A DNA stretch of 64,000 nucleotides from Alphaproteobacteria bacterium (GCA_045659785.1 JAZRCM010000002.1:1954-65953), one strand, 5' to 3'; counted from the stretch's first letter, positions 2,156 to 60,901 are shown. Numbers and translations are program-made. Notes: generated by a model from the sequence alone, not told the origin.

Positions 2156-3777
2156 TGACAGAGTACGATGCAAAGGCACAAGAAGAAGATATCAGATATA
2201 TCAGGGGAAAAGTATTACGAAAATTCCCTCTTCTCGGTGTGACTATGGCATCATTGGAAACCTATCCTGACAGCACGATAAAAACGGCTTATACAGATGG
2301 TAAGAGTATACATTACTCTCCTAAGTTTTTTGCTAAACTTTCTGATGAAGAAAAAGTTTTTGTTTATGCTCATGAAGTTATGCATGTAGCTTTCAATCAC
2401 ATTATGCGAAGCAAAGGAAGACACCATAAGTTATGGAATATTGCAACAGATTCCGTGATTAATCAGATATTGAAAGAAGAAGGTCTTCCTCTTGTAAAAG
2501 GCGGTGTAAACATAGAAGAAGCACTTAATAAATCAGCAGAAGAAATGTATGAAAAACTCTTAAAGAAAAGAGAAGAAAAAAGGAAGCAAAAGGAAGAAGA
2601 GGAAAAAAGGAAACAAGAAAAAAGCAATTCGACAACTTCGCAAGATAATCCCGAACAACAGAGAGACAATCAAGAACAGGAAGAAAATCCTCAAAGTCAA
2701 GAAGATAATAATCAGCAAATAGAGAACAACGAAGACAACAATCAAGCTGATAATGAACAAACAGAAAATACCGACGAACAAGAACAACGCGATAACGGAG
2801 ATTCCGAGGAAGGAAACTCCGATGATGAAAATTCCGTCGAAGAAAATGATGATACTTCTGATAATGAAGAAGATAGCGATGAATTTGACGAAGATATTTA
2901 TGATGTTTTAGATGATGAAAACGAAGATGTCGGACACGCAGACCACCAAATTTGGAAACAAGCCGTAGAAGAGGCAGAAAAACAACAAGCTGCAGAAAAC
3001 GTCCAAAGCGGCACAGGAGAAAGAAGCGAAGGTAACAACGATGATACTTTCGAGAAAGGCTTTGTCGCCGATAACAAAGAAGAACGTGCTCAACAAATTA
3101 AACGAGCAAGACAAATGCTTGAAAAAAGCAAAGCTGAAGCTCAAGCTTCAATACAGGGACAATCATTTGGTGATGTGGGGGAAATTTGCAGAGGAGAAGA
3201 AGTTGTTAATTGGAAAAGAGTATTAAAAAATTCAATAGAAAAAGAAGAAATGCGATGGTCATATCGTCGAGCTTCAGCGGAAAATGATTATGCTGCTAGG
3301 TTAGAAGAAGTGGAAACTGATGAAATGGCAGAAACAGAAGTTATGCTTGATGTCAGCGGTTCTGTTAATGAAAAAATGATCAAAGAATTTTTACGACAGC
3401 TTAAACCTATTTTGAAAAGTTCTAAACTCAAAGTCGGTTGTTTTGATGATAGAATATATGATTTTGCAGAAATCAAAAAAGATAAAGATATTGATGAGTT
3501 CAAAGTTCCCGGTGGCGGCGGTACAAATTTAGATAAAGCGGTACGAGCCTTTTCAAAAAGTAAAAAAGTAAACAAAATAGTATTTACGGATGGATATGCA
3601 TGGGGAAGTGATATGCCTCAAGACGATTTGAAAGGCACAAATGTTCTATGGCTCGTCTATGATAACAGAGACTTCCACCCTTGTTGCGGAAAAGTTATTT
3701 ATGTTGACAAAAAACAATTCACGCAAGGAGCAAGACAATCTTTTGCTCAACAAGGAAAAGACGGATACTTATGTTAA
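2155..3777 (+). CDS. DUF2201-type putative Zn metallopeptidase (HExxH) with a C-terminal vWA domain (MIDAS motif) and a very long acidic low-complexity linker.
   Basis: N-terminal YAHEVMHVAFNH followed by WNIATDSVINQ. C-terminal vWA with DVSGSV (DxSxS) and GGGT. About 2540-3140 is E/D/N/Q-rich. Start overlaps the previous stop. Confidence 0.7.
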   Translation: MTEYDAKAQEEDIRYIRGKVLRKFPLLGVTMASLETYPDSTIKTAYTDGKSIHYSPKFFAKLSDEEKVFVYAHEVMHVAFNHIMRSKGRHHKLWNIATDSVINQILKEEGLPLVKGGVNIEEALNKSAEEMYEKLLKKREEKRKQKEEEEKRKQEKSNSTTSQDNPEQQRDNQEQEENPQSQEDNNQQIENNEDNNQADNEQTENTDEQEQRDNGDSEEGNSDDENSVEENDDTSDNEEDSDEFDEDIYDVLDDENEDVGHADHQIWKQAVEEAEKQQAAENVQSGTGERSEGNNDDTFEKGFVADNKEERAQQIKRARQMLEKSKAEAQASIQGQSFGDVGEICRGEEVVNWKRVLKNSIEKEEMRWSYRRASAENDYAARLEEVETDEMAETEVMLDVSGSVNEKMIKEFLRQLKPILKSSKLKVGCFDDRIYDFAEIKKDKDIDEFKVPGGGGTNLDKAVRAFSKSKKVNKIVFTDGYAWGSDMPQDDLKGTNVLWLVYDNRDFHPCCGKVIYVDKKQFTQGARQSFAQQGKDGYLC

Positions 3778-12562: not shown

Positions 12563-13189
12563 TTATCCGCTTTTTTTAACTGTTACGATATTTGGCTCAA
12601 CAGCTTTTTTTATAGGAACCGAATTTACAGCTACTTTTTCTTGTATTACTCTTTGTTTGTTTCCTTTCTTAACAACCGTTTCTTTAATTTTAGTTTCTTT
12701 TTGAGCAATTGTTGTGTTTTTGTTTTCTTTTTTAGCAACTGTTTTTTGCGGTTGTTTTACCTCCTTTTTAGCTACGGTTTTATTGTTTGTAGTTGGCTTT
12801 TTATTATTTTGAGCTACCGTATTATTCTTTTTAGGTTCTTGTTTTTTATTATTTTGAGCAACCGTATTATTCTTTTTAGGCTCTTGTTTTTTATTATCTG
12901 TCTTTTGGACCTGTTTTTTAGGTTCAGTTTTCTTTTTCTCAGCCTTTTTAACAACTTTTTTTGATGGTTCTTTTTTTACAATGGTATTATTAATAACTTT
13001 TGTGGGTTGAACAATCTTGTAGTTGTTTGTTTCGTAGTGATAAACATTTGTATTGCTGTAACTGTCATAAGGGTATGAATACGAATATGAATAAGTCGAA
13101 TAACCTTCATACGGATATGTTGATATGGCACATCCTGATGCAAATATAACTACTGACAAGCTACAAAATATTTTTATAAAACTTTTCAT
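12563..13189 (-). CDS. Lipoprotein with a Lys-rich repetitive C-terminal region.
   Basis: Signal peptide ending ...FASGC (lipobox-like). Tandem 15 aa repeats KKQEPKKNNTVAQNN. Confidence 0.55.
   Translation of the reverse strand: MKSFIKIFCSLSVVIFASGCAISTYPYEGYSTYSYSYSYPYDSYSNTNVYHYETNNYKIVQPTKVINNTIVKKEPSKKVVKKAEKKKTEPKKQVQKTDNKKQEPKKNNTVAQNNKKQEPKKNNTVAQNNKKPTTNNKTVAKKEVKQPQKTVAKKENKNTTIAQKETKIKETVVKKGNKQRVIQEKVAVNSVPIKKAVEPNIVTVKKSG
12801..12890. repeat. Tandem direct repeat of 45 bp, two copies (two mismatches), inside the lipoprotein gene.
   Basis: TTATTATTTTGAGC[T/A]ACCGTATTATTCTTTTTAGG[T/C]TCTTGTTTT occurs twice in tandem. Confidence 0.8.
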
Positions 13190-31811: not shown

Positions 31812-32945
31812 ATGGCTGATATAAAAGATGATGGAAAAACAGAAGAAGAAAGAAAAAAAGAATTAGAAAAAGAAGAACAAGAAAGAAAAGAAGAAGAAAA
31901 AAAACGAGAAGCATTGTCTGAAATAGAAGCTCAAGCTAAGTCTTTATCAGATAAGTATGGCGAAAAATTTGATGTAGGGGCCTATACTGCTGCTGCTAAA
32001 AGCTATGTAGATGAACATAAATCTTTAGAAGGATTCGATAGTTCTGCCTTTATCAAAGAAAAAGATGATGAAGATAAAGGTAAAGACAAAGATAAAGAAT
32101 CTGATAACGAAAAAATTGAAAATAACAAAGCTCTTTCTTTTTCGCTGAAAGAAAAAGATGGTAAGTTTACGGCTATCGGTACCGATGGAACGGTACTTGA
32201 AGGTAAAAACTTTGAAGAAATAAATGATAAAATATGTCAAGATTTAAAACAAAAAGTTGAAAATGAAGGACGTGAATGCGTTTTGGCTTATAGGGGAAAA
32301 AATCCCGAAAGACAAGAAATATTCTCAAGAAATGCCATAATGAAACATGGTGTAGCTATTTCTGATGGTTATCCTAAAGATCCTCAATTTTGGAAAGATT
32401 TGAAGAATGAATATTTAGCAGACAAAAACCACTCTTTAAAAGAGTGGGAACGTATGACCCGTAAAATTCCTGATGATGTTATGCAACGTACTCCGGAAGA
32501 ACAAGCTCGTAATAAAAAACTGTTGGATGCTGATTTGTTGAAAAAACTTCGTAAAGGTATGACCGCTAATGAAGCAGTGGGAGCTACCGCAGGTATTCCT
32601 CCAACTCCAACTATTCCTTTGAGTATCGACCAAACTAACGGACGAGCAAATAATGTCTCCGGTATGACTAACGTTCCAAATACACCGGTTGCAAATAACA
32701 TTCCGAATATTTCCAATGTGTCTAATGAAGCCGGAACTGTAGGACAGCCTACGGGAGAACAAGTCGGCGATCAAAAAGCTCAAGACAGAAATCTGGTAGC
32801 ACAAATGCGTCGAGGTATTAACCCTAACTCTCCGGAATATCAAGCTCAAATGGCTGCAGAAGAGCAACGCAGACAAAATACGCAAGAGCTTACTCCTGAG
32901 ATGCAGGAAGAAATCAAAAAACGTGCTCAAGATAAAATTAAATAA
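31812..32945 (+). CDS. Highly charged low-complexity hypothetical protein (377 aa).
   Basis: Lys/Glu-rich N-terminus (EEERKKELEKEEQERKEEEKKRE). Asn/Pro/Thr-rich middle. Terminator at 32962-32998. Confidence 0.45.
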   Translation: MADIKDDGKTEEERKKELEKEEQERKEEEKKREALSEIEAQAKSLSDKYGEKFDVGAYTAAAKSYVDEHKSLEGFDSSAFIKEKDDEDKGKDKDKESDNEKIENNKALSFSLKEKDGKFTAIGTDGTVLEGKNFEEINDKICQDLKQKVENEGRECVLAYRGKNPERQEIFSRNAIMKHGVAISDGYPKDPQFWKDLKNEYLADKNHSLKEWERMTRKIPDDVMQRTPEEQARNKKLLDADLLKKLRKGMTANEAVGATAGIPPTPTIPLSIDQTNGRANNVSGMTNVPNTPVANNIPNISNVSNEAGTVGQPTGEQVGDQKAQDRNLVAQMRRGINPNSPEYQAQMAAEEQRRQNTQELTPEMQEEIKKRAQDKIK

Positions 32946-47760: not shown

Positions 47761-47961
47761 TCTCTATTGTTAAATTCCAGTTTATATTAATCAATTAAAT
47801 TTCTTTGTCGACTATATTTATATTTTTATTCAATGAAAACTTTAATTTTATGCTTTAAGCCATGCTTTTTTGTCGTTGTGTGGGAAAACTAAAAAAAAAT
47901 ATTTAAAATAAAATGCTTTTGTTTTACATCTAGAAGTAAATTTAAAAGAAAGGATAAAACA

Positions 47962-48600: not shown

Positions 48601-49721
48601 TGGCTTTGAAACAAACAATTATTGAAGCTCTGCGACTGATTAATACCGATGGTATCGGTCCGGTAAATTATGAAAAATATATAAGTGCATACGGCTCTGT
48701 TGCCGATGCACTTGTTTTTTTGGAAAAAGCAGGAAAGAAAGTACCTACTCCGTCTTGGGCTGAAAATGAATTGAAAAATGCCGAAAAACAAAATGTGCAT
48801 ATTCTACTTAAAGAAGATAATTTATATCCTCAAAAACTCTTATCTCTGAAAGATGCTCCTCCGGTCTTGTACGCAAAAGGAAATTTAAACTTATTATCGA
48901 CAGATTTATCTTTAGCCATAGTCGGAAGTCGCAATGCCAGTATTAATGCAAGAAAGTTGTCATCTAAAATTGCCTGTGATTTAACCGAAAATAAAATTTT
49001 AATAATTTCGGGAATGGCTCGAGGAATTGATGCATCTGCTCATAAGGGAGCAATGTATGCTCTTAATCAAAAAGGTCCAACCATCGCTGTATTGGGAACA
49101 GGAATTGATAAAATATATCCCACGGAAAATAAAGACTTGTATTATCAAATAGCAGAACAGGGTTTGTTATTGTCGGAAGTTCCGTTGGAAACCGAAGCTC
49201 AAGTTTCAAACTTTCCACGCAGAAACAGGATTGTTGCCGGACTAAGCTGCGGAGTTTTGGTAACTGAAGCATCTGAAAAATCAGGTTCGCTAATCACTGC
49301 AAAGATTGGAGCCCAACAGGGAAAACATTTATTTGCCGTTCCGGGTAACCCATGTGATTCAAAATCAGCCGGAACCAATAATTTATTAAGAATGGGGGCG
49401 CATTTTACCGAAAATGCAGATGACATTATTAATATATTGAAGGATTATACTGTTAATACCCCAACCTATAAGGTTGAAAAAATATGTGACGATTTATTCA
49501 TAAACTCTCTTGACAATTCTGCAAAAACTAACAATATTCCTTCTAGTTCTAAATATCCGATTGAAGAATTTTTATCAACATCGGCTGCTGATATAGATGA
49601 AGTTATACGTTATTCAAAACTGGATACAGCAACGGTAATGATGCAAATTCTCGACTTGGAAATAGAGGGAAGGATAGTTCGACTTCCGGGCAATAAAATC
49701 GCATTGAGCGAAAGAAAGTGA
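48600..49721 (+). CDS. dprA: DNA processing protein DprA (Smf).
   Basis: Rossmann-like GMARGIDASAHKGA, ...VPGNPCDSKSAGTNNLLR. Confidence 0.88.
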   Translation: MALKQTIIEALRLINTDGIGPVNYEKYISAYGSVADALVFLEKAGKKVPTPSWAENELKNAEKQNVHILLKEDNLYPQKLLSLKDAPPVLYAKGNLNLLSTDLSLAIVGSRNASINARKLSSKIACDLTENKILIISGMARGIDASAHKGAMYALNQKGPTIAVLGTGIDKIYPTENKDLYYQIAEQGLLLSEVPLETEAQVSNFPRRNRIVAGLSCGVLVTEASEKSGSLITAKIGAQQGKHLFAVPGNPCDSKSAGTNNLLRMGAHFTENADDIINILKDYTVNTPTYKVEKICDDLFINSLDNSAKTNNIPSSSKYPIEEFLSTSAADIDEVIRYSKLDTATVMMQILDLEIEGRIVRLPGNKIALSERK

Positions 49722-49732
49722 GAAAAAAAGAA

Positions 49733-52186
49733 ATGAAACTAGTTATCGTGGAATCTCCGGCAAAAGCCAAAACAATCAATAAATATTTAGGTGAAGAATA
49801 TAAAGTTCTTGCCAGTTTCGGTCATATAAGAGATTTGCCGAGTAAAGACGGTTCCGTTCAACCGGAACAAGATTTTGCCATGACTTGGGAACTGAGTTCC
49901 GGAGGACAAAAACGTCTGAAAGACATTATTGCCGCAGTTAAAGATGCTGACACGATTGTACTCGCATCCGACCCGGATAGAGAAGGAGAAGCCATTGCTT
50001 GGCACATTTTAGAAGAACTGAAAGCTCGTAACAAGATTAAAGATAAAAAAATCGAGCGTGTCGTATTTCACGAAATTACAAAATCAGCAGTAACCGAAGC
50101 AATTAAAAATCCGCGTTCGATTGACGATAATCTGGTTTCTGCATATATGGCAAGACGTGCTCTTGACTATTTGGTAGGTTTTAATCTTTCTCCTGTCTTA
50201 TGGAGAAAACTTCCCGGCTCAAAATCCGCAGGACGTGTACAATCGGTTGCGTTACGTCTTGTTTGCGAAAGAGAAAATGAGATAGAAAACTTTAAGCCGG
50301 AAGAATATTGGACCATTGATGCCGAGTTGTTTACATCAAAACAAGCTTTGATAAAATCAAAATTAGTTACTTTAGACGGTAAAAAGCTGGAAAAATTTGA
50401 CATTAACAGCGAAGAAAAAGCCCTTGCGGCAAAAGCAAAAATAGAAGCTCAAGATTTTGCGGTTTCAAATGTTGAACGCAAAAAAGCTAATCGCTACCCT
50501 GCTCCTCCGTTTACAACCTCAACTTTACAACAGGAAGCAGCTCGTAAGTTACGCTTCTCTGCTAAAAAGACAATGCAGATAGCACAAAAACTCTATGAAG
50601 AAGGTTATATTACCTATATGCGTACCGATGCGGTAAACCTTTCTAAAGATGCTATCAATGCTTGTCGTGATGCGATTGTTAAATATTTTGGTGAAGATTA
50701 TCTGCCTAAAACACCTAAAGAATATAAAAACAAGTCTAAAAATGCGCAAGAAGCTCACGAGGCTATTCGTCCGGCAGATGTATTTAATACTCCTAAAAAA
50801 ATGGAAACAAAACTTGATGCCGATGCTCATAAATTATATGAATTAATTTGGAAGCGCACTGTCGCTTGTCAAATGAATCCTGCTATTTTGGATAAGGTTT
50901 CCATTGAATCTACATCTAATGACGGACAAATTATGTTGCGTGCAAACGGTCAAGTTATCGCTTTTGACGGGTATCTCAAACTTTATCAGGAAAGTTTTGA
51001 CGATGATGACGAAGATGAAGATAACCGCCTGTTGCCAAATGTAGAAGTCGGAGAAAAAGAGACTAAAGGTGAAATTTTCACAGACAAACACTTTACTGCT
51101 CCTCCTCCTCGTTTTACCGAAGCAAGTTTGGTGAAAAAACTTGAAGAACTCGGTATTGGACGTCCGTCAACTTATGCGACTATTATTGCCGTTCTACAAG
51201 AACGTCAATATGTTAAGGTGGAAAAGCTTCGTTTTATTCCTGAAGAGAGAGGAAGAATTGTTACCGTATTTTTAGAAAACTTTTTCAAAAAATATGTAGA
51301 ATATGATTTTACCGCACAAATGGAAGAATTTTTAGATGATATTTCCGCCGGTTCTATGGAATGGAAAAAACTTTTGACCGGTTTTTGGAGCAAATTTATC
51401 AAAAATATTGAAGCGGTCAGTCCATTACAAATGACTGAAGTTATCAATAAAATTGATGAAGTATTGGGAAATCACTTATTCCCTACAAGAGAAGACGGAA
51501 CGGATCCTCGTTCTTGTCCTGATTGTAACAACGGGCGTTTAGGCATAAAATTAGGCCGTTTCGGAGCATTTATAGGTTGTTCTAACTATCCGGAATGTAA
51601 ATATACCAAACAATTGATTGACACCTCTGCCGAAGAAGAAAAAATTGCTAATGCACCGGAATTAACTAATCCTGAAGATAAGGAATTAGGTTTGATAGAC
51701 AATGAGGTTATTTATCTCAAAAAAGGTCCTTACGGTTACTATGTACAATTAGGTGCAGACAAGGGTAAGGAAAAGCCTAAACGTTGCTCTTTGCCAAAAG
51801 GATGTACACCTGAAAACATTTCTTTGGAAAAGGCTGAGATTTTGTTAAATCTGCCTCGTCAATTAGGTAACGGTATTGAAGTTAATATCGGAAAATTCGG
51901 TATGTATATAAAACAAGGCGGAAAATCTAAATCATTAACCGGCAATGATGATGTATTCAACATTACATTGGAAAGAGCCGAACAAATATTGCAAGGGGTA
52001 GCAGAAAAACCTCAAGCGACCGTAATTGGCACAAACCCGCAAAATAACGAACAAATAACCCTAAATTCAGGCAGATATGGTCCTTACTTAAAGTGTGGCA
52101 AGAACAATTACGCCCTACCGAAAGATTTACAAGGTAAAGAAATTGATATTGAAACCGCAATGAAAATAATTTCTGCAAAAAAGTAA
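49733..52186 (+). CDS. topA: DNA topoisomerase I.
   Basis: MKLVIVESPAKAKTI Toprim N-terminus, active-site Tyr region (YITYMRTD), and C-terminal Zn-ribbon-like CPDC/CSNYPEC motifs. The ORF track begins 15 nt earlier. Confidence 0.95.
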   Translation: MKLVIVESPAKAKTINKYLGEEYKVLASFGHIRDLPSKDGSVQPEQDFAMTWELSSGGQKRLKDIIAAVKDADTIVLASDPDREGEAIAWHILEELKARNKIKDKKIERVVFHEITKSAVTEAIKNPRSIDDNLVSAYMARRALDYLVGFNLSPVLWRKLPGSKSAGRVQSVALRLVCERENEIENFKPEEYWTIDAELFTSKQALIKSKLVTLDGKKLEKFDINSEEKALAAKAKIEAQDFAVSNVERKKANRYPAPPFTTSTLQQEAARKLRFSAKKTMQIAQKLYEEGYITYMRTDAVNLSKDAINACRDAIVKYFGEDYLPKTPKEYKNKSKNAQEAHEAIRPADVFNTPKKMETKLDADAHKLYELIWKRTVACQMNPAILDKVSIESTSNDGQIMLRANGQVIAFDGYLKLYQESFDDDDEDEDNRLLPNVEVGEKETKGEIFTDKHFTAPPPRFTEASLVKKLEELGIGRPSTYATIIAVLQERQYVKVEKLRFIPEERGRIVTVFLENFFKKYVEYDFTAQMEEFLDDISAGSMEWKKLLTGFWSKFIKNIEAVSPLQMTEVINKIDEVLGNHLFPTREDGTDPRSCPDCNNGRLGIKLGRFGAFIGCSNYPECKYTKQLIDTSAEEEKIANAPELTNPEDKELGLIDNEVIYLKKGPYGYYVQLGADKGKEKPKRCSLPKGCTPENISLEKAEILLNLPRQLGNGIEVNIGKFGMYIKQGGKSKSLTGNDDVFNITLERAEQILQGVAEKPQATVIGTNPQNNEQITLNSGRYGPYLKCGKNNYALPKDLQGKEIDIETAMKIISAKK

Positions 52187-52316: not shown

Positions 52317-52823
52317 ATGACAAATAAAACAAATTCTACATATTCAAGAGATGAAGCATACTCGATTAAAATAGGTATGTATGCAATTTTGGTAATAGCC
52401 CTTCTCTTTGCGACATATATCATCAGACGAGATTTAACCGCTAATCAGGAGAAAAACAGCCATTATTCCATTAATGCCAGATTTGGCAGAACCGATGGCT
52501 TGAGCATTGGAAACGATGTTCGCTTGGCCGGTGTTAATGTAGGTAAAGTTATTGATATGCAGATAGATGAAAATTATCGAGTTATATTGACAATGGAAAT
52601 CAAAGAAGGAATACAAATTCCTGATGACAGTTCTGCATCTATCGTCAGTAACGGAGTTTTGGGAAGTAAATATATAGAATTGGAACCAGGCGGTTCGGAA
52701 GATTATCTCGAACAAGGAAGCGAAATATCCTTTGTTCGTGATGCGATGGTTTTAGAAGAAGTTGTTGACAGAATTATCGGTTTAGGAAAAGCAAAACGCC
52801 AAAAACAAAAGGAGCAAAAATAA
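52317..52823 (+). CDS. MlaD/MCE-domain protein, copy 1.
   Basis: N-terminal TM, then an MCE domain (RFGRTDGLSIGNDVRLAGVNVGKV...). Confidence 0.75.
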   Translation: MTNKTNSTYSRDEAYSIKIGMYAILVIALLFATYIIRRDLTANQEKNSHYSINARFGRTDGLSIGNDVRLAGVNVGKVIDMQIDENYRVILTMEIKEGIQIPDDSSASIVSNGVLGSKYIELEPGGSEDYLEQGSEISFVRDAMVLEEVVDRIIGLGKAKRQKQKEQK

Positions 52824-53281
52824 TGAGTAAACGACCATTTGAAACAATTATGGGAATTGTGGTATTAATAATTGCAGGTCTGTTCTTGGCTTTTGCATAC
52901 AGAGTTTCTGATTTACAAGTAGTTAAAGGATATGAGCTTACGGCAAAATTCTTAAAAGTCGGAGGGCTCGGAGTTGGTGCAGACGTTATGATTAACGGTA
53001 TAAAAATCGGAACGGTTGTCGGTTTGAAACTTGATAATGAAAATTATGATGCAGAAATCAAATTAAGTATTGCTCCCGATGTGAAGTTGCCGGAAGACAG
53101 TGTTGCAACTATTGCAACAAACGGTTTGATGGGCAATAAGTTTATCAAGGTAGAACCGGGAAAATCAAAAGAAATTCTGCAAAACGGTGATGAAATCACC
53201 AATACAAAAGATTTCAAAACATTAGAAGATATGGTTGGTGAAGTTATATTTATGGTGACCGGCGATGATGACAAAGAATAA
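52823..53281 (+). CDS. MlaD/MCE-domain protein, copy 2, a tandem paralogue of copy 1.
   Basis: N-terminal TM, then an MCE domain (KFLKVGGLGVGADVMINGIKIGTV...). Confidence 0.75.
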   Translation: MSKRPFETIMGIVVLIIAGLFLAFAYRVSDLQVVKGYELTAKFLKVGGLGVGADVMINGIKIGTVVGLKLDNENYDAEIKLSIAPDVKLPEDSVATIATNGLMGNKFIKVEPGKSKEILQNGDEITNTKDFKTLEDMVGEVIFMVTGDDDKE

Positions 53282-54335
53282 ACTTTTTTATACAACATTG
53301 TTTTCCGCATTATCACTGTCTTTAGGTGCCAATGCGACAGAAATAAATACCAATACCGCTATTATGCAGGCAATGGATAAAATTACCGGTCACGTAAGTC
53401 TTGTGGAAGTTCCGGTAAATCAGGAAGTTAAGTTCGGTACTTTTTCAATTTTGGTTCGTGAGTGTAAAACAAGAACTCCTGAAGAAACACCGGAAAACTT
53501 TGCCTTTGTTGATATTGTCGATGCCACACCTAAGGGCAATAAAATCAATATCTTCAAAGGGTGGATGTTATCTTCATCTCCGGCATTGAATGCTGTTGCT
53601 CATCCGGTATATGACGTATGGCTGTTGAAATGTACTGACAAAAACGTTGATACAAAATTACAGATGAATAAAGAGGAGTTAGCTGACAGAGATACAATAG
53701 AAATGAAACGTCAGCAAGCTATTATGGTTTTGGAAGAAATTGCTAAAAGTGAAGATGCGGTTGAAAATAATGGAGAACCTATCGACTTAATTCCGGCTTC
53801 GGTCGCAGAAAATAGCGAAGAAAATAAAACAGAAAAAGCTGTTGTTGAAACAACTGAAGAAGTCAAATCCGAAAATATGGTAGCAAAAACAGATAACAAT
53901 ATCAGTATTGTTGAAAATACACCGAAAGAAACTGCAACCGATGTTAAAGAGATAACTACTCCTACGGAAGAAGGAGTACCTGAAGCTTTGGTTGTAATTC
54001 AGGAGGAAAAAACGCCTGTTGCATCGCAAGAAGAATATGAAGTTATCGAAAACGTCGTTGTTATAAAAAGCGAACAGGAACAAAAACTTACTTCCGATAT
54101 AAAAAATGTTCAGGAAGAACTCAAAGAACAAGTAGCCGAAGTTGCTGAAAAAGTGGAAGAAAATACTAAAAAAGCTATTGAAGAAGCTGATAAACACATT
54201 GAAAAGATTGCGGAAGAAACAAAAGAAACCGTAAAACAAAAGGTAGATGAGGAGATTAAAGAGAAAGTTCTCTCTCCGGAAGAAATTATTTTACAGCTTG
54301 AAAAAGAATTATCGGCTAAAGCTATCGGAGAATAA
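53265..54335 (+). CDS. Secreted protein, possibly DUF2155-like, with a long Glu/Lys-rich C-terminal tail.
   Basis: Signal peptide. Conserved-looking N-terminal domain of about 130 aa, then E/K/V-rich low complexity. Confidence 0.45.
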   Translation: MMTKNKLFYTTLFSALSLSLGANATEINTNTAIMQAMDKITGHVSLVEVPVNQEVKFGTFSILVRECKTRTPEETPENFAFVDIVDATPKGNKINIFKGWMLSSSPALNAVAHPVYDVWLLKCTDKNVDTKLQMNKEELADRDTIEMKRQQAIMVLEEIAKSEDAVENNGEPIDLIPASVAENSEENKTEKAVVETTEEVKSENMVAKTDNNISIVENTPKETATDVKEITTPTEEGVPEALVVIQEEKTPVASQEEYEVIENVVVIKSEQEQKLTSDIKNVQEELKEQVAEVAEKVEENTKKAIEEADKHIEKIAEETKETVKQKVDEEIKEKVLSPEEIILQLEKELSAKAIGE

Positions 54336-55282
54336 TGAGGAGTAATAATATGAGCGAAAACGAAATTGATGTTAGTTTTGTGATGACGGTTTATAATAAA
54401 GAATATTATTTGCCGTCGGTATTAAAAGCTCTTTTAGGTCAAACAGGACTAAAAAATCCGGAATTTATTTTTGTTGATGATTTATCTTCGGATAAGTCAG
54501 TTCAAATTATCAAAGATATGACTAAAGATATTCCTAATGTGACTATTGTTGAAAACGACAGAAACAGAGGAATTAGTGCTCGAATAAATCAGGGTATCGC
54601 TTTAGCAAAGGGGAAATGGTGCCGAATGCTTGATTCTGATGACATTTTTCCGCTTGATTCTACCGAAAAAATGATAAAGCTCGCAGAAGAGCTTCCGGCT
54701 GATATGGTCTATGGTTGTTTTACCAAAACCGGAAAAGAACCGCAAGAACTTGAAAAATGTATGTTAGAAGAATTTACATATACCCATAATCAAAATGCTC
54801 TTATGGGAGTTTTGACCGGAAGATTTACCCGTATGGGACAATTAATTAAAACAGAAGTATTGAAAAAAGCCGAAGGTGCTGATGAACGTGCTTTTATCCA
54901 AGATGAATCTATTCCTTTGAGAGCTGCAATTTATGCACATGGTATAGCAAAAATGACTGCTAACGTGGTTTTGGTTCCTAAGGAAATAGGCAATTTCTCT
55001 GGTAATAAGGTTCAGCTCGATCACGACCGATTTATGGCATATTATTGGACAATAAAAGATAATACACAGCTATCTGAAAAGAATATGCATCTGATGTATA
55101 TGAGAGCCTTGTCGGCATATTGGAAATTTGTAAAGAAGACTGAAAAAAATCCGTATATGACATCTATATTCTATCGTTATTTATGGTGCAAAATGAGTAA
55201 TTGCTTACCTGATATTGAATATTTGGATAAGATATATAATATTTTTGCAGCAAGAGATGATGTTCGCAGAATAAAACCATAA
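54335..55282 (+). CDS. Family 2 glycosyltransferase.
   Basis: VSFVMTVYNKEYYL...FIFVDDLSSDKS...LDSDD. Confidence 0.75.
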   Translation: MRSNNMSENEIDVSFVMTVYNKEYYLPSVLKALLGQTGLKNPEFIFVDDLSSDKSVQIIKDMTKDIPNVTIVENDRNRGISARINQGIALAKGKWCRMLDSDDIFPLDSTEKMIKLAEELPADMVYGCFTKTGKEPQELEKCMLEEFTYTHNQNALMGVLTGRFTRMGQLIKTEVLKKAEGADERAFIQDESIPLRAAIYAHGIAKMTANVVLVPKEIGNFSGNKVQLDHDRFMAYYWTIKDNTQLSEKNMHLMYMRALSAYWKFVKKTEKNPYMTSIFYRYLWCKMSNCLPDIEYLDKIYNIFAARDDVRRIKP

Positions 55283-55340
55283 AACTATCCTAAAATACAT
55301 AAAATAATATTGACTGTTTTTTAATATATGCAATAGTATT

Positions 55341-55385
55341 GCTATGCTATGCTATGCTATGCTATGCTATGCTATGCTATGGCAT
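55341..55385. repeat. Pentanucleotide simple-sequence repeat (GCTAT)9 in the 5' leader or start region of the pyruvyl transferase gene.
   Basis: GCTATGCTATGCTATGCTATGCTATGCTATGCTATGCTATGCTAT. It contains ATGs every 15 nt that are currently in frame with the downstream CDS. Confidence 0.9.
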
Positions 55386-55410
55386 AATATATTATGAACA
55401 GGAGATAAAC

Positions 55411-56223
55411 ATGATACGCTTACACTACTGCCGTGCCAATAATTTTGGCGATGCAATGAATCCGATTTTAATTGAACGCCTTACCGGTAAAAAATGCAAA
55501 TATGCCGGAAAGTCGACTGCACAAATTGTAGGAATCGGCAGTATCTTAAATGGTTTTACTCGTCCTCGTTTCGGTAAAAGAATAAAAGATTTATTTACCT
55601 TACCGACAAATATCTGGACATCAGGTTTCATAAAAGAGGTAGATTACAAAGAAAATTTCAGAAAAAATATCCATTTTGCCGCAGTAAGAGGAAAAATTAC
55701 CAAAGAGCGTATTGAAAAAATTGTTGGTAAAAAGATTGATATGGCTCTCGGTGACGGAGGACTTTTGTTCAATCGTTTGCTTGATATTGCTCCGGAAAAG
55801 AAGTATAAAATCGGATTTACACCTCACGTTGAAGATTTAGATAATCCTCTTTTTAATAAACTTATTGATGAAATACCTCACTCAATATTGATTAATTTTA
55901 GGGATGAACCTTTGACTGTTCTTAAACAAATTGCAGAATGCGAGTTTGTTCTTTCCACATCAATGCACGGACTTATTGCTGCAGATTCTTTCGGTATTCC
56001 GAATCAATGGTTGACAGTTTCAAATAAACTTACCGGTGGAGAGTATAAATTTAAGGATTATTATTCGGTGTTTAATATCACTCCTAAAGCTTTAACGGCT
56101 GATGATGTTAAAAACCTTAACCAAAATCAAATTGAAGATTTAGCAAATCAATACAAAATAAACTATACTCAAGTTGAAGAAGTTCAAAACGATCTTTTAG
56201 AAGCCTTAATGGACATTACATAA
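55411..56223 (+). CDS. Polysaccharide pyruvyl transferase family protein (CsaB/WcaK-like).
   Basis: RANNFGDAMNP...GIGSIL N-terminal motif. Start taken at the ATG with SD AGGAGA 6 nt upstream. The ORF track begins at 55339 inside the repeat. Confidence 0.6.
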   Translation: MIRLHYCRANNFGDAMNPILIERLTGKKCKYAGKSTAQIVGIGSILNGFTRPRFGKRIKDLFTLPTNIWTSGFIKEVDYKENFRKNIHFAAVRGKITKERIEKIVGKKIDMALGDGGLLFNRLLDIAPEKKYKIGFTPHVEDLDNPLFNKLIDEIPHSILINFRDEPLTVLKQIAECEFVLSTSMHGLIAADSFGIPNQWLTVSNKLTGGEYKFKDYYSVFNITPKALTADDVKNLNQNQIEDLANQYKINYTQVEEVQNDLLEALMDIT

Positions 56224-56255
56224 TAAAAAAACTCGGGAAATCCCGAGTTTTTTAT
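56224..56255. terminator. Bidirectional terminator.
   Basis: AAAAAAACTCGGGAAATCCCGAGTTTTTT. Confidence 0.75.
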
Positions 56256-56272
56256 TATAACTTTAATTATAA

Positions 56273-56728
56273 TTAGAATGGGATATCGTCATCAATAGGA
56301 GCAGTTGCCGGAGCAGAATCCCATCCGTTTGATGCAGATGCAGAAAATACGTCTCCGCCTGAAGAAGCACCTTCACCACGTCCGTCAAGCATAACTAATG
56401 TTCCTGTATAGTTTTGCAAAACAATCTCTGTTGTGTATCTCTTTTGACCGTTAGCATCGTCCCAAGAGCGTGTTTGCAATTGACCTTCAATATAAACTTT
56501 TGAACCTTTACGCAAAAATCTTTCTGCAACATCAGCTAACTGGTTATTAAAAATAACTACACGATGCCATTCGGTTCTGTCTTTTCTTTCTCCGGAAACT
56601 TTATCTTTCCATGTATCGGTTGTAGCAACACTTAAGTTCACCACTTTACTACCGTTTTGTGTTGTATTAACTCTCGGGTCATCACCAAGATTACCGACCA
56701 AAATCACTTTGTTTATACTTCCAGCCAT
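56273..56728 (-). CDS. ssb: Single-stranded DNA-binding protein.
   Basis: [14 protein letters not shown]...[12 protein letters not shown]-fold motifs and an acidic C-terminal tail ...DDDIPF. Confidence 0.93.
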
Positions 56729-56800: not shown

Positions 56801-57919
56801 TCAATATACCTGTGTATATTCGCCATCACGAATACGATAAATAACATAAGGCAATGATTTTTCAGGAATACCGTTAATAAATGTCACTGTATCCCATCCG
56901 GTATTAATCGGATTTGCTTCAAGTTGTTTTAAGATTTTATCATATTTGAATGATTTTGTTTCTTTTACCAGATTTGACCACATTTTTACCGACAAATATC
57001 CGTAAGGCATCAATCCTTCCGGCTCAATCCCCCATAAACGAAGTCTGACCAAGCTTGATGCAAAATTCGGATTTTGTGTTAATGGAGGTAAAGACATCAT
57101 AAAACTATCTTCTGATAAATCTTTCATTTTACGAGCAAATTTCTTATTTAAGTGGTATCTGTCCGCAAAAACAACAATTTCTGAATCCATTGTTTTTAAT
57201 TTTTCAATTGTCTTTATAATATTATCATGTGTTCCTAAAACATAAACGATAGAAGCTTCGCCGTTTGTTGCCTTTGATACGGCGGCATCAATATCTCCTC
57301 CCTGCTCTGCATAGTTGATAAGAATTAAACTGCCCTTACTTTCAGGTTTTTCATATTCGAGTCTGATAGTATCGGCAACCGAAGTCATATCCATATCTTT
57401 TCCGTCATAAAATACGGCCATTGTATGTTGCGGATAGTGAGAGAACACAAAGCGTGTCAATTCTTTTGCTTGCTCCTCTTTATAGCCGGTAAAGTGGATT
57501 ATTCCTTTATGTGCACGATTATATCTGGCTTTGCTTACACTTGTCGGGTGTACCTGCAAAATTTTTGCCTTTGCCAACAATTCGGCAACATCATCGGCAG
57601 CATTGTTACAGGTGGGACCGATTACCATATAAATTTTGTTATCTGCAACCTTATTCAGTGACATCATTTGCGCAGCCGAAAGAGAAAGATTGTCATCACA
57701 AGGATCATCAATCGGTAAAAGATTTATTTTTTTACCTTGCAAACCGCCACGATTATTAATCTCATCAACCGCAATTTTTGCACCGTTAATCAATTCTTCG
57801 CTAAAATATTTATAGTCGTTACCCATAGGAGTAATAACCGCAATATTTATTTCTGCAAAAGCATTAAACGGAGAGAGTAACACAGCTCCCAACAATATAT
57901 TTCTAAAAAAGTTCTTCAT
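56801..57919 (-). CDS. Periplasmic substrate-binding protein, type 1 PBP (LivJ/LivK-like, branched-chain amino acid family). No cognate permease nearby.
   Basis: Signal peptide. INIAVITPMGNDYKYFSEELINGAKIAVDEINNRGGLQGKKINLL is typical of the Leu/Ile/Val-binding family. Confidence 0.6.
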   Translation of the reverse strand: MKNFFRNILLGAVLLSPFNAFAEINIAVITPMGNDYKYFSEELINGAKIAVDEINNRGGLQGKKINLLPIDDPCDDNLSLSAAQMMSLNKVADNKIYMVIGPTCNNAADDVAELLAKAKILQVHPTSVSKARYNRAHKGIIHFTGYKEEQAKELTRFVFSHYPQHTMAVFYDGKDMDMTSVADTIRLEYEKPESKGSLILINYAEQGGDIDAAVSKATNGEASIVYVLGTHDNIIKTIEKLKTMDSEIVVFADRYHLNKKFARKMKDLSEDSFMMSLPPLTQNPNFASSLVRLRLWGIEPEGLMPYGYLSVKMWSNLVKETKSFKYDKILKQLEANPINTGWDTVTFINGIPEKSLPYVIYRIRDGEYTQVY

Positions 57920-58090
57920 TTCGTTCTTCTTTATTTATTTTAGTACTAAACTCTACCAATATTAACTAATTTTTAATATATTGGCAAGCACAAAGCATTA
58001 TTATTGACAAAATATCGCTTTTATTTGCTTATTTTAGGGATTTTTGTTGCTAAATTTGTTGTTGCTGTCTATATTTTTCACAGGAGATTG

Positions 58091-60901
58091 ATGATGGAAT
58101 ATATAGATATAAAAGGCGCAAGAGAACATAATCTTAAAAATATTGATATAAAAATTCCAAAAAACAAACTGACGGTAATAACAGGTATATCCGGCTCAGG
58201 AAAATCGTCTCTGGCCTTTGATACAATCTATGCGGAAGGTCAACGCAGATATGTGGAAAGCCTTTCGGCTTATGCGCGCCAATTTTTAGACCTGATGAAA
58301 AAGCCCGAAGTAGACTCTATTGAGGGATTGTCGCCGGCTATTTCCATTGAGCAAAAAACAACCTCGCACAATCCTCGTTCGACAGTCGGCACAATTACCG
58401 AAATATACGATTATATGCGTCTATTATGGGCAAGAGCCGGAACTCCCTATTCTCCGGCCACCGGTCTCCCGATTGAATCTCAAACTGTTTCTCAAATGAC
58501 CGATGCGATTATAACAATGCCGGAAGGAAGTAAAATTATGCTTTTGGCACCTATAGCTCGAGGTAAAAAAGGAGAATTTAAAAAAGAATTTGAAAACTTA
58601 CAAAGACAAGGATTTCAGCGAATAAAAATTGATGGAGAAGTTTATAGCCTTGATGAAACTCCGGAATTAAATAAAAATCAAAAACATAACATTGAAGTTA
58701 TTGTTGATAGAATTGTAGTTAAAGCCGGGCTTGAAGAACGCCTGTCACAATCAATAGAAACCGCTTTGAAATTAAGCAACGGGTTGTTGTTTGTCGAAAA
58801 CATAAGTGCAGGAGAAATAAAAACTTATTCTTCTAAATTTGCCTGCCCTGTTTCGGGATTTACCATTGAAGAAATTGAGCCAAGATTATTTTCATTTAAC
58901 AATCCATACGGTGCTTGCCCTCATTGTGACGGTATCGGTGCAAGACTTTATATGGATCCGGATTTGATTGTTCCTAATCCTAATTTATCTTTATCAAAAG
59001 GTGCTATTGCCCCTTGGGATGCCGGACGTTCAGCCTTTTACAATCAAACAATTACATCTTTGTGCGATTTTTTAAGAATTGACAGTAAAATGCCATGGAA
59101 AGATATTCCTGAAAAAGCAAAAAATATCATTCTTTACGGTTCGGGAAATGTATGTGTACCGATGTATTATTCTCGTTTTGTAACAGATAAACCTTTTGAA
59201 GGTGTAATTCCTAATATGGAGCGAAGATTTTTAGAAACCGACTCGAACTGGGTAAGAGAAGAATTTGCAAAATATCAATCTTCGGCAACGTGTGATTATT
59301 GCAAAGGTAAACGTCTAAAACCGGAAGCTTCGGCTATTAAAATATGCGGACTTGATATTATGGACGCCTCAGAAATGTCAATTAAACAAGCTTTGGAATG
59401 GTTTTCGAAAGTAGAAGAACAATTATCACCTAAAAAAGCTGAAATTGCCTCTAAAATCTTGAAAGAAATAATTGAACGTCTGCAATTTTTGAATAATGTC
59501 GGACTTGGTTATTTAACACTTTCTCGTCAATCAGGTTCGTTGTCCGGCGGAGAAGCTCAAAGAATACGTTTGGCCTCGCAAATAGGTTCCGGATTAACCG
59601 GCGTTATGTATGTTTTAGATGAACCGTCAATCGGTTTACATCAAAGAGATAATGACCGCTTGTTGTCAACATTAAACAGATTGCGAGATATAGGAAACAC
59701 GGTTATAGTTGTAGAACATGACGAAGATGCAATTAAATCAGCAGATTTTTTGGTTGATATGGGCCCCGGAGCCGGAGAAAACGGCGGTAAAGTTATGGCT
59801 TTGGGTAATGTTGAGGAGGTATTAAAAAATCCTGACAGTATTACGGCACAATATATTACCGGTAAAAAAGAAATATCTGTTCCTATTCGTCGCAGAAGCG
59901 GTAACGGAAAGTTTATTGAAATTACCGGAGCCAAAACAAACAACCTTAAAAACGTTGACTTAAAAATTCCGTTAGGAACATTTACTTGTGTCACCGGCGT
60001 TTCAGGAGGAGGAAAATCTTCTCTCATTTTAGAAACACTTTTTAAGGCTATCAATAAGGAACTTAACGGAAGCCGTGAACATGCAGGAAAATATGACAAG
60101 TTGTCAGGGCTTGAAAATATTGATAAGGTTATAGATATAGACCAATCCCCCATCGGCAGAACCCCTCGTTCTAATCCGGCAACTTATACCGGTGTATTTT
60201 CTTATATCAGGGAATGGTTTGCCGGACTTCCTGAAGCAAAAGCAAGAGGTTATTCGGCAGGAAGATTTTCATTTAATGTGGCTGGGGGAAGATGTGAAGC
60301 CTGTCAAGGCGATGGTGTTACAAAAATAGAAATGCACTTTTTGCCTGATGTTTATGTGGCTTGCGATGTTTGTAAAGGAAAACGTTTTAATAGAGAAACT
60401 TTAGAAGTAAAATATAAAGGAAAATCAATTGCTGATGTTCTTGATATGACCGTTGATGAAGCACACACATTTTTTGAAGCCATACCTTCCATTAAAAATC
60501 GACTGGAACTTTTGCAAAAAGTAGGATTAGGATATATCCATCTCGGACAATCGGCAACCACATTATCAGGCGGTGAAGCACAAAGAATTAAGTTATCTAA
60601 AGAATTATCAAAGAAAGCAACTGGGAAAACTTTATATATTTTAGATGAACCGACAACAGGGCTCCATTTTGATGATATAAACAAGCTGCTAAAAGTGTTA
60701 CAAGCTCTAGTCGAGCAAGGAAATACCGTTGTTGTTATTGAACATAATCTCGATGTTATAAAAGTTGCGGATTATATAGTTGATATGGGACCTGAAGGCG
60801 GAGACGGAGGAGGAAAAATTGTTGTTCAGGGAACTCCGGAAGAAGTTGCAAAATCGAAAAAAAGTTATACGGCAAAATATTTACGTGAAAAATTGAAATA
60901 A
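58091..60901 (+). CDS. uvrA: Excinuclease ABC subunit UvrA.
   Basis: Two ABC modules ([23 protein letters not shown] and [10 protein letters not shown]), Zn-finger [20 protein letters not shown] signatures. SD AGGAG. The ORF track begins 87 nt upstream. Confidence 0.95.

What the first reader, a model, noticed from the sequence alone, without database searches (positions are those of the whole stretch)
55290..55430. (GCTAT)9 pentanucleotide repeat with in-frame ATGs upstream of a polysaccharide pyruvyl transferase gene, a candidate phase-variation switch
Seen in sequence: nine perfect GCTAT units at 55341-55385 sit between the GT2 gene and the pyruvyl transferase gene. The repeat yields ATG codons every 15 nt, and in the present state they are in frame with the downstream CDS, giving MLCYAMLCYAMLCYG.... 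A good SD (AGGAGA) and ATG at 55411 lie about 25 nt after the repeat. Established knowledge: in Haemophilus lic1/lic2 and similar loci, tetra- or pentanucleotide repeats containing start codons switch surface-polysaccharide modification genes on and off by slipped-strand mispairing. Inference: gain or loss of a unit (5 nt) would shift the upstream ATGs out of frame, or alter promoter-RBS spacing. That would give stochastic switching of polysaccharide pyruvylation.
Basis: partly seen in the sequence, partly recalled or inferred. Interest (0 to 1): 0.6.

Follow-up and report, generated by a model that had tools for sequence, protein, structure and literature searches.

The report
Variable 5-base repeat before sugar-modifying gene
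A perfect run of the 5-base unit GCTAT sits just upstream of a surface-polysaccharide pyruvyl transferase gene in an uncultured gut alphaproteobacterium, and its copy number runs from 3 to 10 among almost identical strains, so it is a real mutational hot spot of the kind bacteria use to vary their surface, though it cannot work by the reading-frame mechanism first proposed.

Summary
The repeat is real, but it has 8 perfect GCTAT units (55341-55380), not 9. It lies in the 128-nt gap between a GT2 glycosyltransferase gene (54335-55282) and a PF04230 polysaccharide pyruvyl transferase (PT) gene (55411-56223). Nothing like it is expected by chance, and it is the only notable simple repeat in the 64 kb.

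Independent public assemblies of the same species carry 3, 4, 5, 6, 6, 6, 8, 8 and 10 units between unchanged flanks. Some of these PT genes differ by only 1-2 nt in 813. Nine further contigs end inside the repeat. A sister lineage has a unique 38-nt sequence in its place, and other strains lack the PT gene altogether. Hypermutability is therefore supported.

The proposed frame switch is not supported. The conserved start codon (ATG 55411, with its ribosome-binding site) lies 3' of the repeat. An in-frame ATG stays at -42 for every n>=3, so adding or removing units cannot put the gene out of frame.

A conserved promoter-like site (TTGACT...TAGTAT) ends directly 5' of the repeat. The most likely reading is a repeat in the promoter-proximal leader that grades expression, as at H. 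influenzae hmw1A or M. catarrhalis uspA2. That effect is inferred, not shown. This is a new member of a known kind.

The parts
55341..55380 (+). (GCTAT)8 perfect pentanucleotide repeat, the hypermutable element
   Evidence: Copy number is 3-10 in other assemblies.
55310..55339 (+). Promoter-like site P1: TTGACT (55310-15), then either N16 + TG + AATAGT (55332-37) or N18 + TAGTAT (55334-39). It ends directly 5' of the repeat.
   Evidence: Consensus scan. The stretch ttgactgttttttaatatatgcaatagta is identical in every PT-bearing allele, including lineages about 14% diverged in the coding sequence. The transcription start is not mapped.
55380..55388 (+). Extended -10-like element P2 (TGgCATAAT), formed by the last repeat unit plus the GG flank. 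It is an alternative promoter 3' of the repeat.
   Evidence: Read directly from the sequence. CATAAT is conserved in the other alleles but reads CATAAG in L032. Inference only.
55400..55405 (+). Shine-Dalgarno sequence AGGAGA, 5 nt before the start codon
   Evidence: Conserved in all alleles. Predicted accessibility is unchanged for n=0-12.
55411..56223 (+). Polysaccharide pyruvyl transferase family gene (270 aa), the gene downstream of the repeat
   Evidence: PF04230, 42 bits against a cut-off of 25.3. The N-terminus is conserved in homologues. The gene is accessory: absent in L019, L021, L022, L023, L025 and L027.
54335..55282 (+). GT2 glycosyltransferase gene, the last gene of the MlaD-MlaD-DUF2155-GT2 run upstream. 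No terminator was detected before the repeat.
56226..56253 (-). Terminator-like hairpin between the convergent PT and SSB genes. It is also present in strains that lack PT.
55339..55410 (+). Open in-frame extension of the PT ORF through the repeat (TTG 55339; ATGs 55354 and 55369). Most likely not coding.
   Evidence: Gene callers sometimes used it (P0121, P0129, P0131), but no SD precedes it and homologues lack it.

Best explanation
The (GCTAT)n tract is a hypermutable simple-sequence repeat, a contingency-type locus. It lies in the promoter-proximal leader of an accessory polysaccharide pyruvyl transferase gene of an uncultured ruminant-gut alphaproteobacterium.

Slipped-strand mispairing adds or removes 5-bp units. 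This part is shown by natural variation: 3-10 units among near-identical strains.

The tract lies 3' of a conserved sigma-70-like promoter (TTGACT...TAGTAT) and 5' of the ribosome-binding site and conserved start codon. Unit changes therefore do not frameshift the gene. They change the length and sequence of the initially transcribed region or 5' leader, or the distance between upstream promoter elements and a second, extended -10-like element at the 3' edge of the repeat. The expected result is graded or stochastic variation in how much pyruvyl transferase is made, and hence in pyruvylation of a surface glycan. This step is inferred by analogy with hmw1A and uspA2 and was not tested.
For: - Repeat: perfect 8-unit tract, 0 expected by chance, and the only such repeat in 64 kb.
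- Copy number in complete intergenic regions: 3 (L032), 4 (L038), 5 (L040), 6 (L011, L033, L036), 8 (window, L012), 10 (L035).
- Differences in copy number between nearly identical PT genes: window vs L033, 1 nt in 813 but 8 vs 6 units; L036 vs L038, 1 nt, 6 vs 4 units; L011 vs L032, 2 nt, 6 vs 3 units.
- Broken contigs: nine further contigs from nine samples end inside the repeat. For the seven Logan contigs, taking Logan's word length as 31 (my own recollection, consistent with each starting on exactly 29 repeat bases plus GG), this implies n>=7 or a mixed population, because 31-mers repeat only from n=7. Two are non-Logan assemblies, including the species-representative MAG.
- Persistence: the repeat is kept, and kept perfect, in lineages 5% (L034) and 14% (L035) diverged in the PT coding sequence.
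- Start codon 3' of the repeat: all homologues start at the position of ATG 55411, and a strong SD lies at 55400-05.
- Promoter-like site directly 5' of the repeat, invariant across alleles.
- Context typical of contingency loci: an accessory surface-glycan modification gene that also shows presence/absence and a non-repeat allele within the species.
- Known precedents for upstream or 5'-UTR repeats acting as rheostats: hmw1A (PMC12721329); uspA2 and modO (PMC7302503).
Against: - No expression data, no mapped transcription start and no read-level counts within one population. The step from copy number to expression is inference.
- The RNA folding model shows no change in accessibility of the SD and AUG with n (0.70-0.71 for n=0-12). 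One obvious post-transcriptional route is therefore not supported.
- No terminator separates GT2 from PT. Read-through transcription could make the local promoter, and hence the repeat, less important.
- The promoter calls are consensus matches no more frequent than in shuffled sequence (11 found against 12.5 expected).
- Between-sample differences in assemblies show strain-level polymorphism. They do not prove high-frequency reversible switching.
Confidence: 0.6

Rival explanations
1. Translational ON/OFF switch. Translation starts at a codon in or at the 5' edge of the repeat (TTG 55339, or the first ATG 55344, possibly on a leaderless mRNA). Unit changes then move that start in or out of frame with the PT coding sequence.
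For: - The frame is open through the whole repeat, and the repeat has no stop codon in any frame.
- The P1 geometry would place a transcription start near A55344, the first ATG (sequence reading).
- The first ATG is in frame when n mod 3 = 0, and the TTG when n mod 3 = 2.
- Gene callers produced extended products (P0129, P0131).
Against: - The conserved N-terminus of the family is at ATG 55411, which has its own strong SD. PT would be made whatever the upstream frame.
- An in-frame ATG at -42 exists for every n>=3.
- There is no SD before the TTG or the repeat ATGs.
- Out-of-frame upstream ORFs stop before the SD.
- Observed n values fall in all three residue classes.
Confidence: 0.08
2. Neutral microsatellite. 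The tract is a slippage-prone sequence that varies in length but has no consequence for PT expression.
For: - Variation by itself needs no function.
- Predicted SD accessibility is independent of n.
- A sister lineage does without the repeat.
Against: - It is the only such repeat in 64 kb, so the genome is not generally repeat-rich.
- It lies exactly between the conserved promoter-like site and the SD of an accessory surface-glycan gene.
- It is kept long and perfect in lineages up to 14% diverged, whereas neutral bacterial microsatellites decay or contract.
- By the k=31 argument, most Logan samples hold n>=7.
Confidence: 0.27
3. Assembly or sequencing artefact. The differences in copy number arise from mis-assembly of a short repeat.
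For: Contig ends inside the repeat include one with evident errors (L001: TATGCGATGATATGC). Some contigs have low coverage (L035 at 1.9x, L032 at 2.8x, from the record names).
Against: - The tract is 15-50 nt, which I take (my own assumption; read lengths were not checked) to be shorter than single Illumina reads.
- Nine complete contigs from different assemblers (MEGAHIT, SPAdes, Logan) and an NCBI MAG give clean perfect repeats with identical flanks.
- The differences are 1-5 whole units.
Confidence: 0.03

Closest known systems
Haemophilus influenzae hmw1A/hmw2A (ATCTTTC)n repeat in the 5'-UTR (PMC12721329)
   Same: A non-triplet repeat upstream of the start codon of a surface-structure gene, lying 3' of the promoter. 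Copy number varies among strains. It acts, and is here presumed to act, as a rheostat rather than a frame switch.
   Different: - The unit is 7 bp there and 5 bp here.
- There are at least 11 units there and 3-10 here.
- The hmw leader forms a long hairpin with a G-rich arm that RNase III cleaves. The fold here is only a modest self-hairpin, and SD accessibility does not change with n.
- The host is an uncultured alphaproteobacterium rather than a gammaproteobacterium, and the target is a glycan-modifying enzyme rather than an adhesin.
- Transcription of the repeat is not shown here.
Moraxella catarrhalis uspA2 (AGAT)n and modO (CAACG)n upstream repeats (PMC7302503)
   Same: Tetra- or pentanucleotide repeats upstream of the ORF whose length varies between strains. 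For uspA2, length grades the mRNA level.
   Different: The organism, unit sequence and target gene all differ. The uspA2 repeat lies 132 bp upstream with 13-18 units. modO expression has not been analysed either.
Haemophilus influenzae lic1/lic2A-type tetranucleotide switches
   Same: A hypermutable short repeat linked to a gene that decorates a surface glycan, giving population heterogeneity through slippage.
   Different: In lic1 and lic2A the repeat lies inside the translated frame, 3' of the start codons, so unit changes frameshift the protein. Here the conserved start is 3' of the repeat and the frame cannot be lost.
Promoter-spacer repeats (H. influenzae hifA/B TA repeats; Neisseria opc and fetA poly-C; own knowledge)
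   Same: Intergenic repeats that alter transcription.
   Different: Those tracts lie between the -35 and -10 hexamers. Here both P1 hexamers lie 5' of the repeat. No observed n gives a canonical spacing between TTGACT and the downstream CATAAT: the spacer is 67 nt at n=8 and still 42 nt at n=3.

Membership tests
SSR-mediated contingency (phase-variable) locus | Perfect tandem repeat of a short unit, long enough to slip (at least 3 units for pentanucleotides) | tested here: met
   8 perfect units at 55341-55380, with 0 expected by chance.
SSR-mediated contingency (phase-variable) locus | Repeat lies within, or immediately upstream of, a gene (coding sequence, promoter or leader) | tested here: met
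   It lies in the 128-nt GT2-PT intergenic region and ends 30 nt before ATG 55411.
SSR-mediated contingency (phase-variable) locus | Copy number differs among closely related strains while the flanks stay constant | tested here: met
   n = 3, 4, 5, 6, 8 among PT genes that differ by at most 10 of 813 nt, and n = 10 in a diverged lineage.
SSR-mediated contingency (phase-variable) locus | High-frequency, reversible change within a clonal population | not testable with these tools
   The only evidence is indirect: 9 contigs end inside the repeat. Read-level data are needed.
SSR-mediated contingency (phase-variable) locus | A change in copy number alters expression of the associated gene | not testable with these tools
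   There are no expression data. The fold model shows no n-dependence of SD accessibility.
In-frame (translational) SSR switch, lic1/opa type | Repeat lies in the translated frame, 3' of the functional start codon, so non-triplet changes frameshift the product | tested here: not met
   The conserved family N-terminus is at ATG 55411, 3' of the repeat. An in-frame ATG at -42 exists for all n>=3.
Promoter-spacer SSR switch (between -35 and -10) | Repeat lies between the two promoter hexamers, so n sets the spacer length | tested here: not met
   For the conserved P1, both hexamers are 5' of the repeat. The TTGACT-to-CATAAT distance is 67 nt at n=8 and 42 nt at n=3, never 16-18. The weaker TTGCTA (55339-44) would lie 18 nt from CATAAT only at n=4 (sequence arithmetic).
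5'-UTR / upstream SSR rheostat (hmw1A, uspA2 type) | Repeat lies between the transcription start and the start codon and is transcribed | tested here: inconclusive
   P1 predicts a transcription start at about 55344-55346, inside the first unit. An alternative extended -10 (55380-88) would put the start 3' of the repeat. No transcription-start data are available.
Polysaccharide pyruvyl transferase family (Pfam PF04230) | Sequence scores above the Pfam gathering threshold | tested here: met
   42.0 bits against a cut-off of 25.3, E 1.4e-10. The NCBIfam CsaB model matches only weakly, 20 bits against 213. No PDB relative was found by sequence. Substrate and activity are untested.

The most novel reading that the evidence does not exclude
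The 5-bp unit is about half a helical turn. Each gain or loss would flip the rotational phase between the conserved upstream block (TTGACT plus the T/A-rich tract, 55310-55339) and the extended -10-like element created at the 3' edge of the repeat (TGgCATAAT, 55380-88). This would make a parity (odd/even) toggle rather than a length rheostat. In addition, every unit forms a TGnTAnnnT extended -10-like motif (TGCTATGCT), so the tract would be a tandem array of RNA-polymerase/sigma-binding sites whose number changes by slippage. Among complete contigs, 7 of 9 have an even n (4, 6, 6, 6, 8, 8, 10 against 3 and 5). The sample is small and partly non-independent, and the non-repeat allele's 38-nt spacer corresponds to an odd n (7).
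Probability: 0.1. Interest if true: 0.7.

Novelty: new member of a known kind. Interest (0 to 1): 0.45.

Why it matters
Repeat-driven phase variation has been worked out almost entirely in a few cultured pathogens (Haemophilus, Neisseria, Campylobacter, Moraxella). Here public metagenome assemblies alone show a hypermutable repeat upstream of a surface-glycan pyruvylation gene in an uncultured ruminant-gut alphaproteobacterium.

The same locus varies in three ways: by copy number, by replacement of the repeat with a palindrome-bearing unique sequence, and by presence or absence of the gene. That pattern points to strong diversifying pressure (phage, host immunity or lectins) on pyruvylation of a surface polysaccharide in a commensal.

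It also gives a concrete, testable case of an upstream pentanucleotide repeat, for which the mechanism (leader length, promoter phasing) is poorly understood.

Tried and rejected
- **JGI metagenome scan with the PT protein.** It returned only three distant relatives (32-38% identity) and no same-species loci, so it gave no repeat counts.
- **Exact look-up of the window's GT2 (310-aa form).** Not on record.
- **P0124.** It is the same sequence as P0001, so that look-up was wasted.
- **The non-repeat allele's 38 nt as a decayed repeat.** Its alignment score to (GCTAT)7 is no better than 26% of shuffles. Rejected.
- **The non-repeat allele as ancestral.** Not supportable. The repeat occurs in three lineages, including L035, whose coding sequence is closer to the non-repeat lineage (77 against 112 differences).
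- **SD sequestration that depends on n.** Predicted unpaired probability is 0.70-0.71 for n=0-12. Rejected as far as folding models go.
- **Known RNA family in the intergenic region.** None: the only Rfam hit is a chance-level E=0.16 match elsewhere.
- **More specific naming of PT.** NCBIfam gave only a sub-threshold CsaB match and PDB sequence search gave nothing.
- **Compositional sign of recent transfer of the PT gene.** None was apparent in the profile (GC 0.30-0.39 across the region).
- **Repeats upstream of PT homologues in sister species (L002, L003, 64% identity).** None. There the gene sits at a different locus with its own TTGACA-N17-TATCAT promoter.

Full report
**1. What is in the sequence**

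Window 55341-55380 is eight perfect GCTAT units. TRF reports 8.4 copies of TGCTA at 55340-55381 with 100% matches.

A 25-nt piece of the repeat never occurs in 100 dinucleotide-preserving shuffles. A regex census finds no other 5-mer repeat of at least 4 units in the 64 kb; the only other simple repeat is an A9 run at 47891. The window is 36% G+C.

The genes around the repeat are:
- topA, 49718-52186
- two MlaD-domain genes, 52317-52823 and 52823-53281
- DUF2155, 53265-54335
- GT2 glycosyltransferase, 54335-55282
- the 128-nt gap that holds the repeat
- PF04230 polysaccharide pyruvyl transferase (PT), 55411-56223
- convergent ssb, 56273-56728 on the minus strand
- a periplasmic binding protein gene, 56801-57919 on the minus strand
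- uvrA, 58004-60901

The PT match to Pfam is above threshold (42 bits against 25.3). NCBIfam gives only a weak CsaB match, and no PDB relative is found by sequence.

**2. Where it comes from**

The PT protein is 100% identical to one in an "Alphaproteobacteria bacterium" MAG from roe-deer colon (RGIG4207, L001). Relatives at 64% identity occur in yak-rumen and other gut MAGs. The organism is an uncultured gut alphaproteobacterium.

**3. The repeat is hypermutable**

Exact-protein look-ups returned many independent assemblies of this locus. Complete intergenic regions, all with the same flanks (...ttgactgttttttaatatatgcaatagta[t/a]t-(GCTAT)n-ggcataatatattatgaacaggagataaacATG), are listed below.

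| Units (n) | Locus | Source |
|---|---|---|
| 3 | L032 | ERZ1767473 |
| 4 | L038 | SRR24653848 |
| 5 | L040 | ERZ28594688 |
| 6 | L011 | ERZ28019339 |
| 6 | L033 | ERZ27302838 |
| 6 | L036 | GCA_054265175.1 |
| 8 | window | this window |
| 8 | L012 | ERZ28593983 |
| 10 | L035 | ERZ25021409 |

The PT coding sequences in these contigs are almost identical while n differs:
- window vs L033: 1 difference in 813 nt, but 8 vs 6 units
- L036 vs L038: 1 difference, 6 vs 4 units
- L011 vs L032: 2 differences, 6 vs 3 units

The repeat therefore changes far faster than point substitutions accumulate. It varies on both of the two GT2-3'-end haplotypes that flank the cassette.

Nine further contigs stop inside the repeat:
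- L001, the species-representative MAG, which has erroneous bases at its end
- L015, a MEGAHIT k141 contig
- seven Logan contigs: L013, L014, L034, L037, L039, L041, L042

Taking Logan's word length as k=31 (my own recollection), a break is expected only when n>=7 or the population is mixed, because repeated 31-mers appear only from n=7. Each of these contigs begins with exactly the first unique 31-mer, CTAT(GCTAT)5GG. Longer tracts such as the window's are therefore probably the commoner state.

**4. Other alleles of the same locus**

A sister lineage (L020, L024, L026, L028; PT about 95% identical in protein, 110 of 813 nt different) has the same promoter-like block and the same SD. In place of tt(GCTAT)n-g it carries a unique 38-nt sequence, atatgcaaattgcatatcgtgttacttgtgctgtggta.

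That sequence is not a decayed repeat. It contains a perfect palindrome, ATATGCAA-A-TTGCATAT. It also contains a 9-nt arm that pairs with the ATATGCAAT in the promoter spacer.

The repeat is present in three lineages: the window clade; L034, with 38 differences; and L035, with 112 differences from the window but only 77 from the non-repeat lineage. I therefore cannot say which state is ancestral.

Six further contigs with an identical SSB lack the PT gene entirely. In these the GT2 stop is followed by the shared terminator hairpin and then ssb.

In sister species the PT homologue sits at a different locus (FadL-PT-GT4-fmt-def). It has a terminator and its own TTGACA-N17-TATCAT promoter, and no repeat.

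**5. Why the frame-switch model fails**

- Homologues at 43-67% identity all begin M-[I/L]-[K/R]-L-[H/F/Y]-Y, aligned with ATG 55411. That codon has a strong SD (AGGAGA, 5-nt spacing). The real coding sequence therefore starts 3' of the repeat.
- Slippage adds or removes units without moving the 3' flank. The ATGs nearest the gene thus keep fixed offsets (-32, -37, -42 and so on), and the ATG at -42 is in frame for every n>=3.
- The two other frames stop at -16 (TGA 55395) and -26 (TAA 55385), before the SD, for every n.
- Only a start fixed at the 5' edge would shift frame: TTG 55339 is in frame when n mod 3 = 2, and the first ATG 55344 when n mod 3 = 0. Neither has an SD, and the downstream SD-ATG would still make native PT.
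- The extended products in databases (P0121, P0129, P0131) are choices made by gene callers.

**6. The most likely mechanism**

The block TTGACT (55310-15), followed by either N16-TG-AATAGT or N18-TAGTAT (ending at 55337 or 55339), is the best local sigma-70-like site. It is invariant in all PT-bearing alleles, whereas the sequence just upstream of it differs between haplotypes. It ends directly 5' of the repeat, so a transcription start about 7 nt downstream would fall in the first unit. The tract would then be the 5' end of the leader.

This is the architecture of the H. influenzae hmw1A heptamer repeat, which is transcribed in the 5'-UTR and grades expression (PMC12721329). It also resembles upstream repeats at M. 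catarrhalis uspA2 (AGAT) and modO (CAACG) (PMC7302503).

A second candidate is an extended -10-like TGgCATAAT at 55380-88, created by the last unit plus GG. If this is the working promoter, the repeat lies in its upstream region and sets the distance and phase to the conserved block.

Folding the predicted leader gives a repeat-internal 5' hairpin that grows with n. The unpaired probability of the SD and AUG does not change (0.70-0.71 for n=0-12), so n-dependent masking of the SD is not supported. No Rfam family matches. No terminator separates GT2 from PT, so read-through transcription is possible.

The link from copy number to expression is therefore inference. What is shown is hypermutability, position relative to the start codon, and conservation of the promoter-like block.

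**7. Comparison and novelty**

Pentanucleotide repeats are established mediators of phase variation, for example H. influenzae hsdM GACGA and an LPS gene (PMC2651432), and the pentanucleotide repeat reported upstream of M. catarrhalis modO (PMC7302503).

As a kind, this is an intergenic contingency repeat of the rheostat type. It fails the test for a lic1-type in-frame switch and for a -35/-10 spacer switch. Its membership of the transcribed 5'-UTR class is unresolved without a mapped transcription start.

The new aspects are the host (an uncultured gut alphaproteobacterium) and the target (a PF04230 pyruvyl transferase; a literature search for pyruvyl with phase-variable repeats listed nothing with 'pyruvyl' among its top 15 hits). 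Also new is that the variation is visible directly in public metagenome assemblies, alongside a non-repeat allele and a gene-absent allele.

I rate it a new member of a known kind, interest 0.45.

Noticed in passing
L019, L021, L022, L023, L025, L027 (about 2957-3036 in each) compared with window 55283-56272: The pyruvyl transferase gene is an accessory cassette. Six contigs encoding an SSB identical to the window's go straight from the GT2 stop to the shared terminator hairpin and ssb, with no PT gene. Short similar motifs (tACATAA) at both cassette edges suggest deletion or insertion through short direct repeats.
   Followed up: partly
L020:3871-3900 (minus strand of the locus); the same in L024, L026 and L028: The non-repeat allele replaces the repeat with 38 unique nt carrying a perfect palindrome, ATATGCAA-A-TTGCATAT. 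A 9-nt arm also pairs with the ATATGCAAT in the promoter spacer. It looks like an operator, which would mean one lineage has regulated control and the other stochastic control of the same gene.
   Followed up: partly
L001:1-30 (JAFTWG010000013.1, end of contig): The contig of the GTDB species-representative MAG ends inside the repeat with corrupted units (TATGCGATGATATGC). NCBI annotated a partial 289-aa PT that starts in the repeat (MBQ8785091.1, P0121).
   Followed up: yes
window 55262-55310 compared with L011:2860-2910: Near-identical PT cassettes are joined to two different GT2 3' ends and downstream spacers (…agaataaaaccataaaactatcctaaaatac… against …aggattaaaccttaaaaaaaaatcaaaatac…). This implies recombination around the cassette.
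   Followed up: no
window 12765-12897 (within the minus-strand ORF 12563-13189): A 45-bp in-frame tandem repeat (2-3 copies, 86-96% matches) lies inside a 208-aa lysine-rich protein with a lipoprotein-type signal (…VIFASGC). The repeated peptide is KKQEPKKNNTVAQNN. This is a possible size-variable surface lipoprotein.
   Followed up: partly
window 31834-31904: A purine-rich (AAG/AGA) low-complexity tract is reported by TRF under several periods. Its coding context was not examined.
   Followed up: no
window 47891-47899: An A9 homopolymer is the only other simple repeat above threshold in the window. Its gene context and variability were not checked.
   Followed up: no
L002:1522-6599 and L003: In sister species (PT 64% identical) the PT gene lies at a different locus, paired with a GT4 glycosyltransferase between a FadL-family porin gene and fmt-def. 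It has its own terminator and a TTGACA-N17-TATCAT promoter. PT therefore travels as a small PT-plus-glycosyltransferase pair inserted among housekeeping genes.
   Followed up: partly
L036:15771-16487: A zeta-toxin/AAA_33 gene with small neighbouring ORFs lies downstream of uvrA in a related MAG. Whether the window has the same insert was not checked.
   Followed up: no
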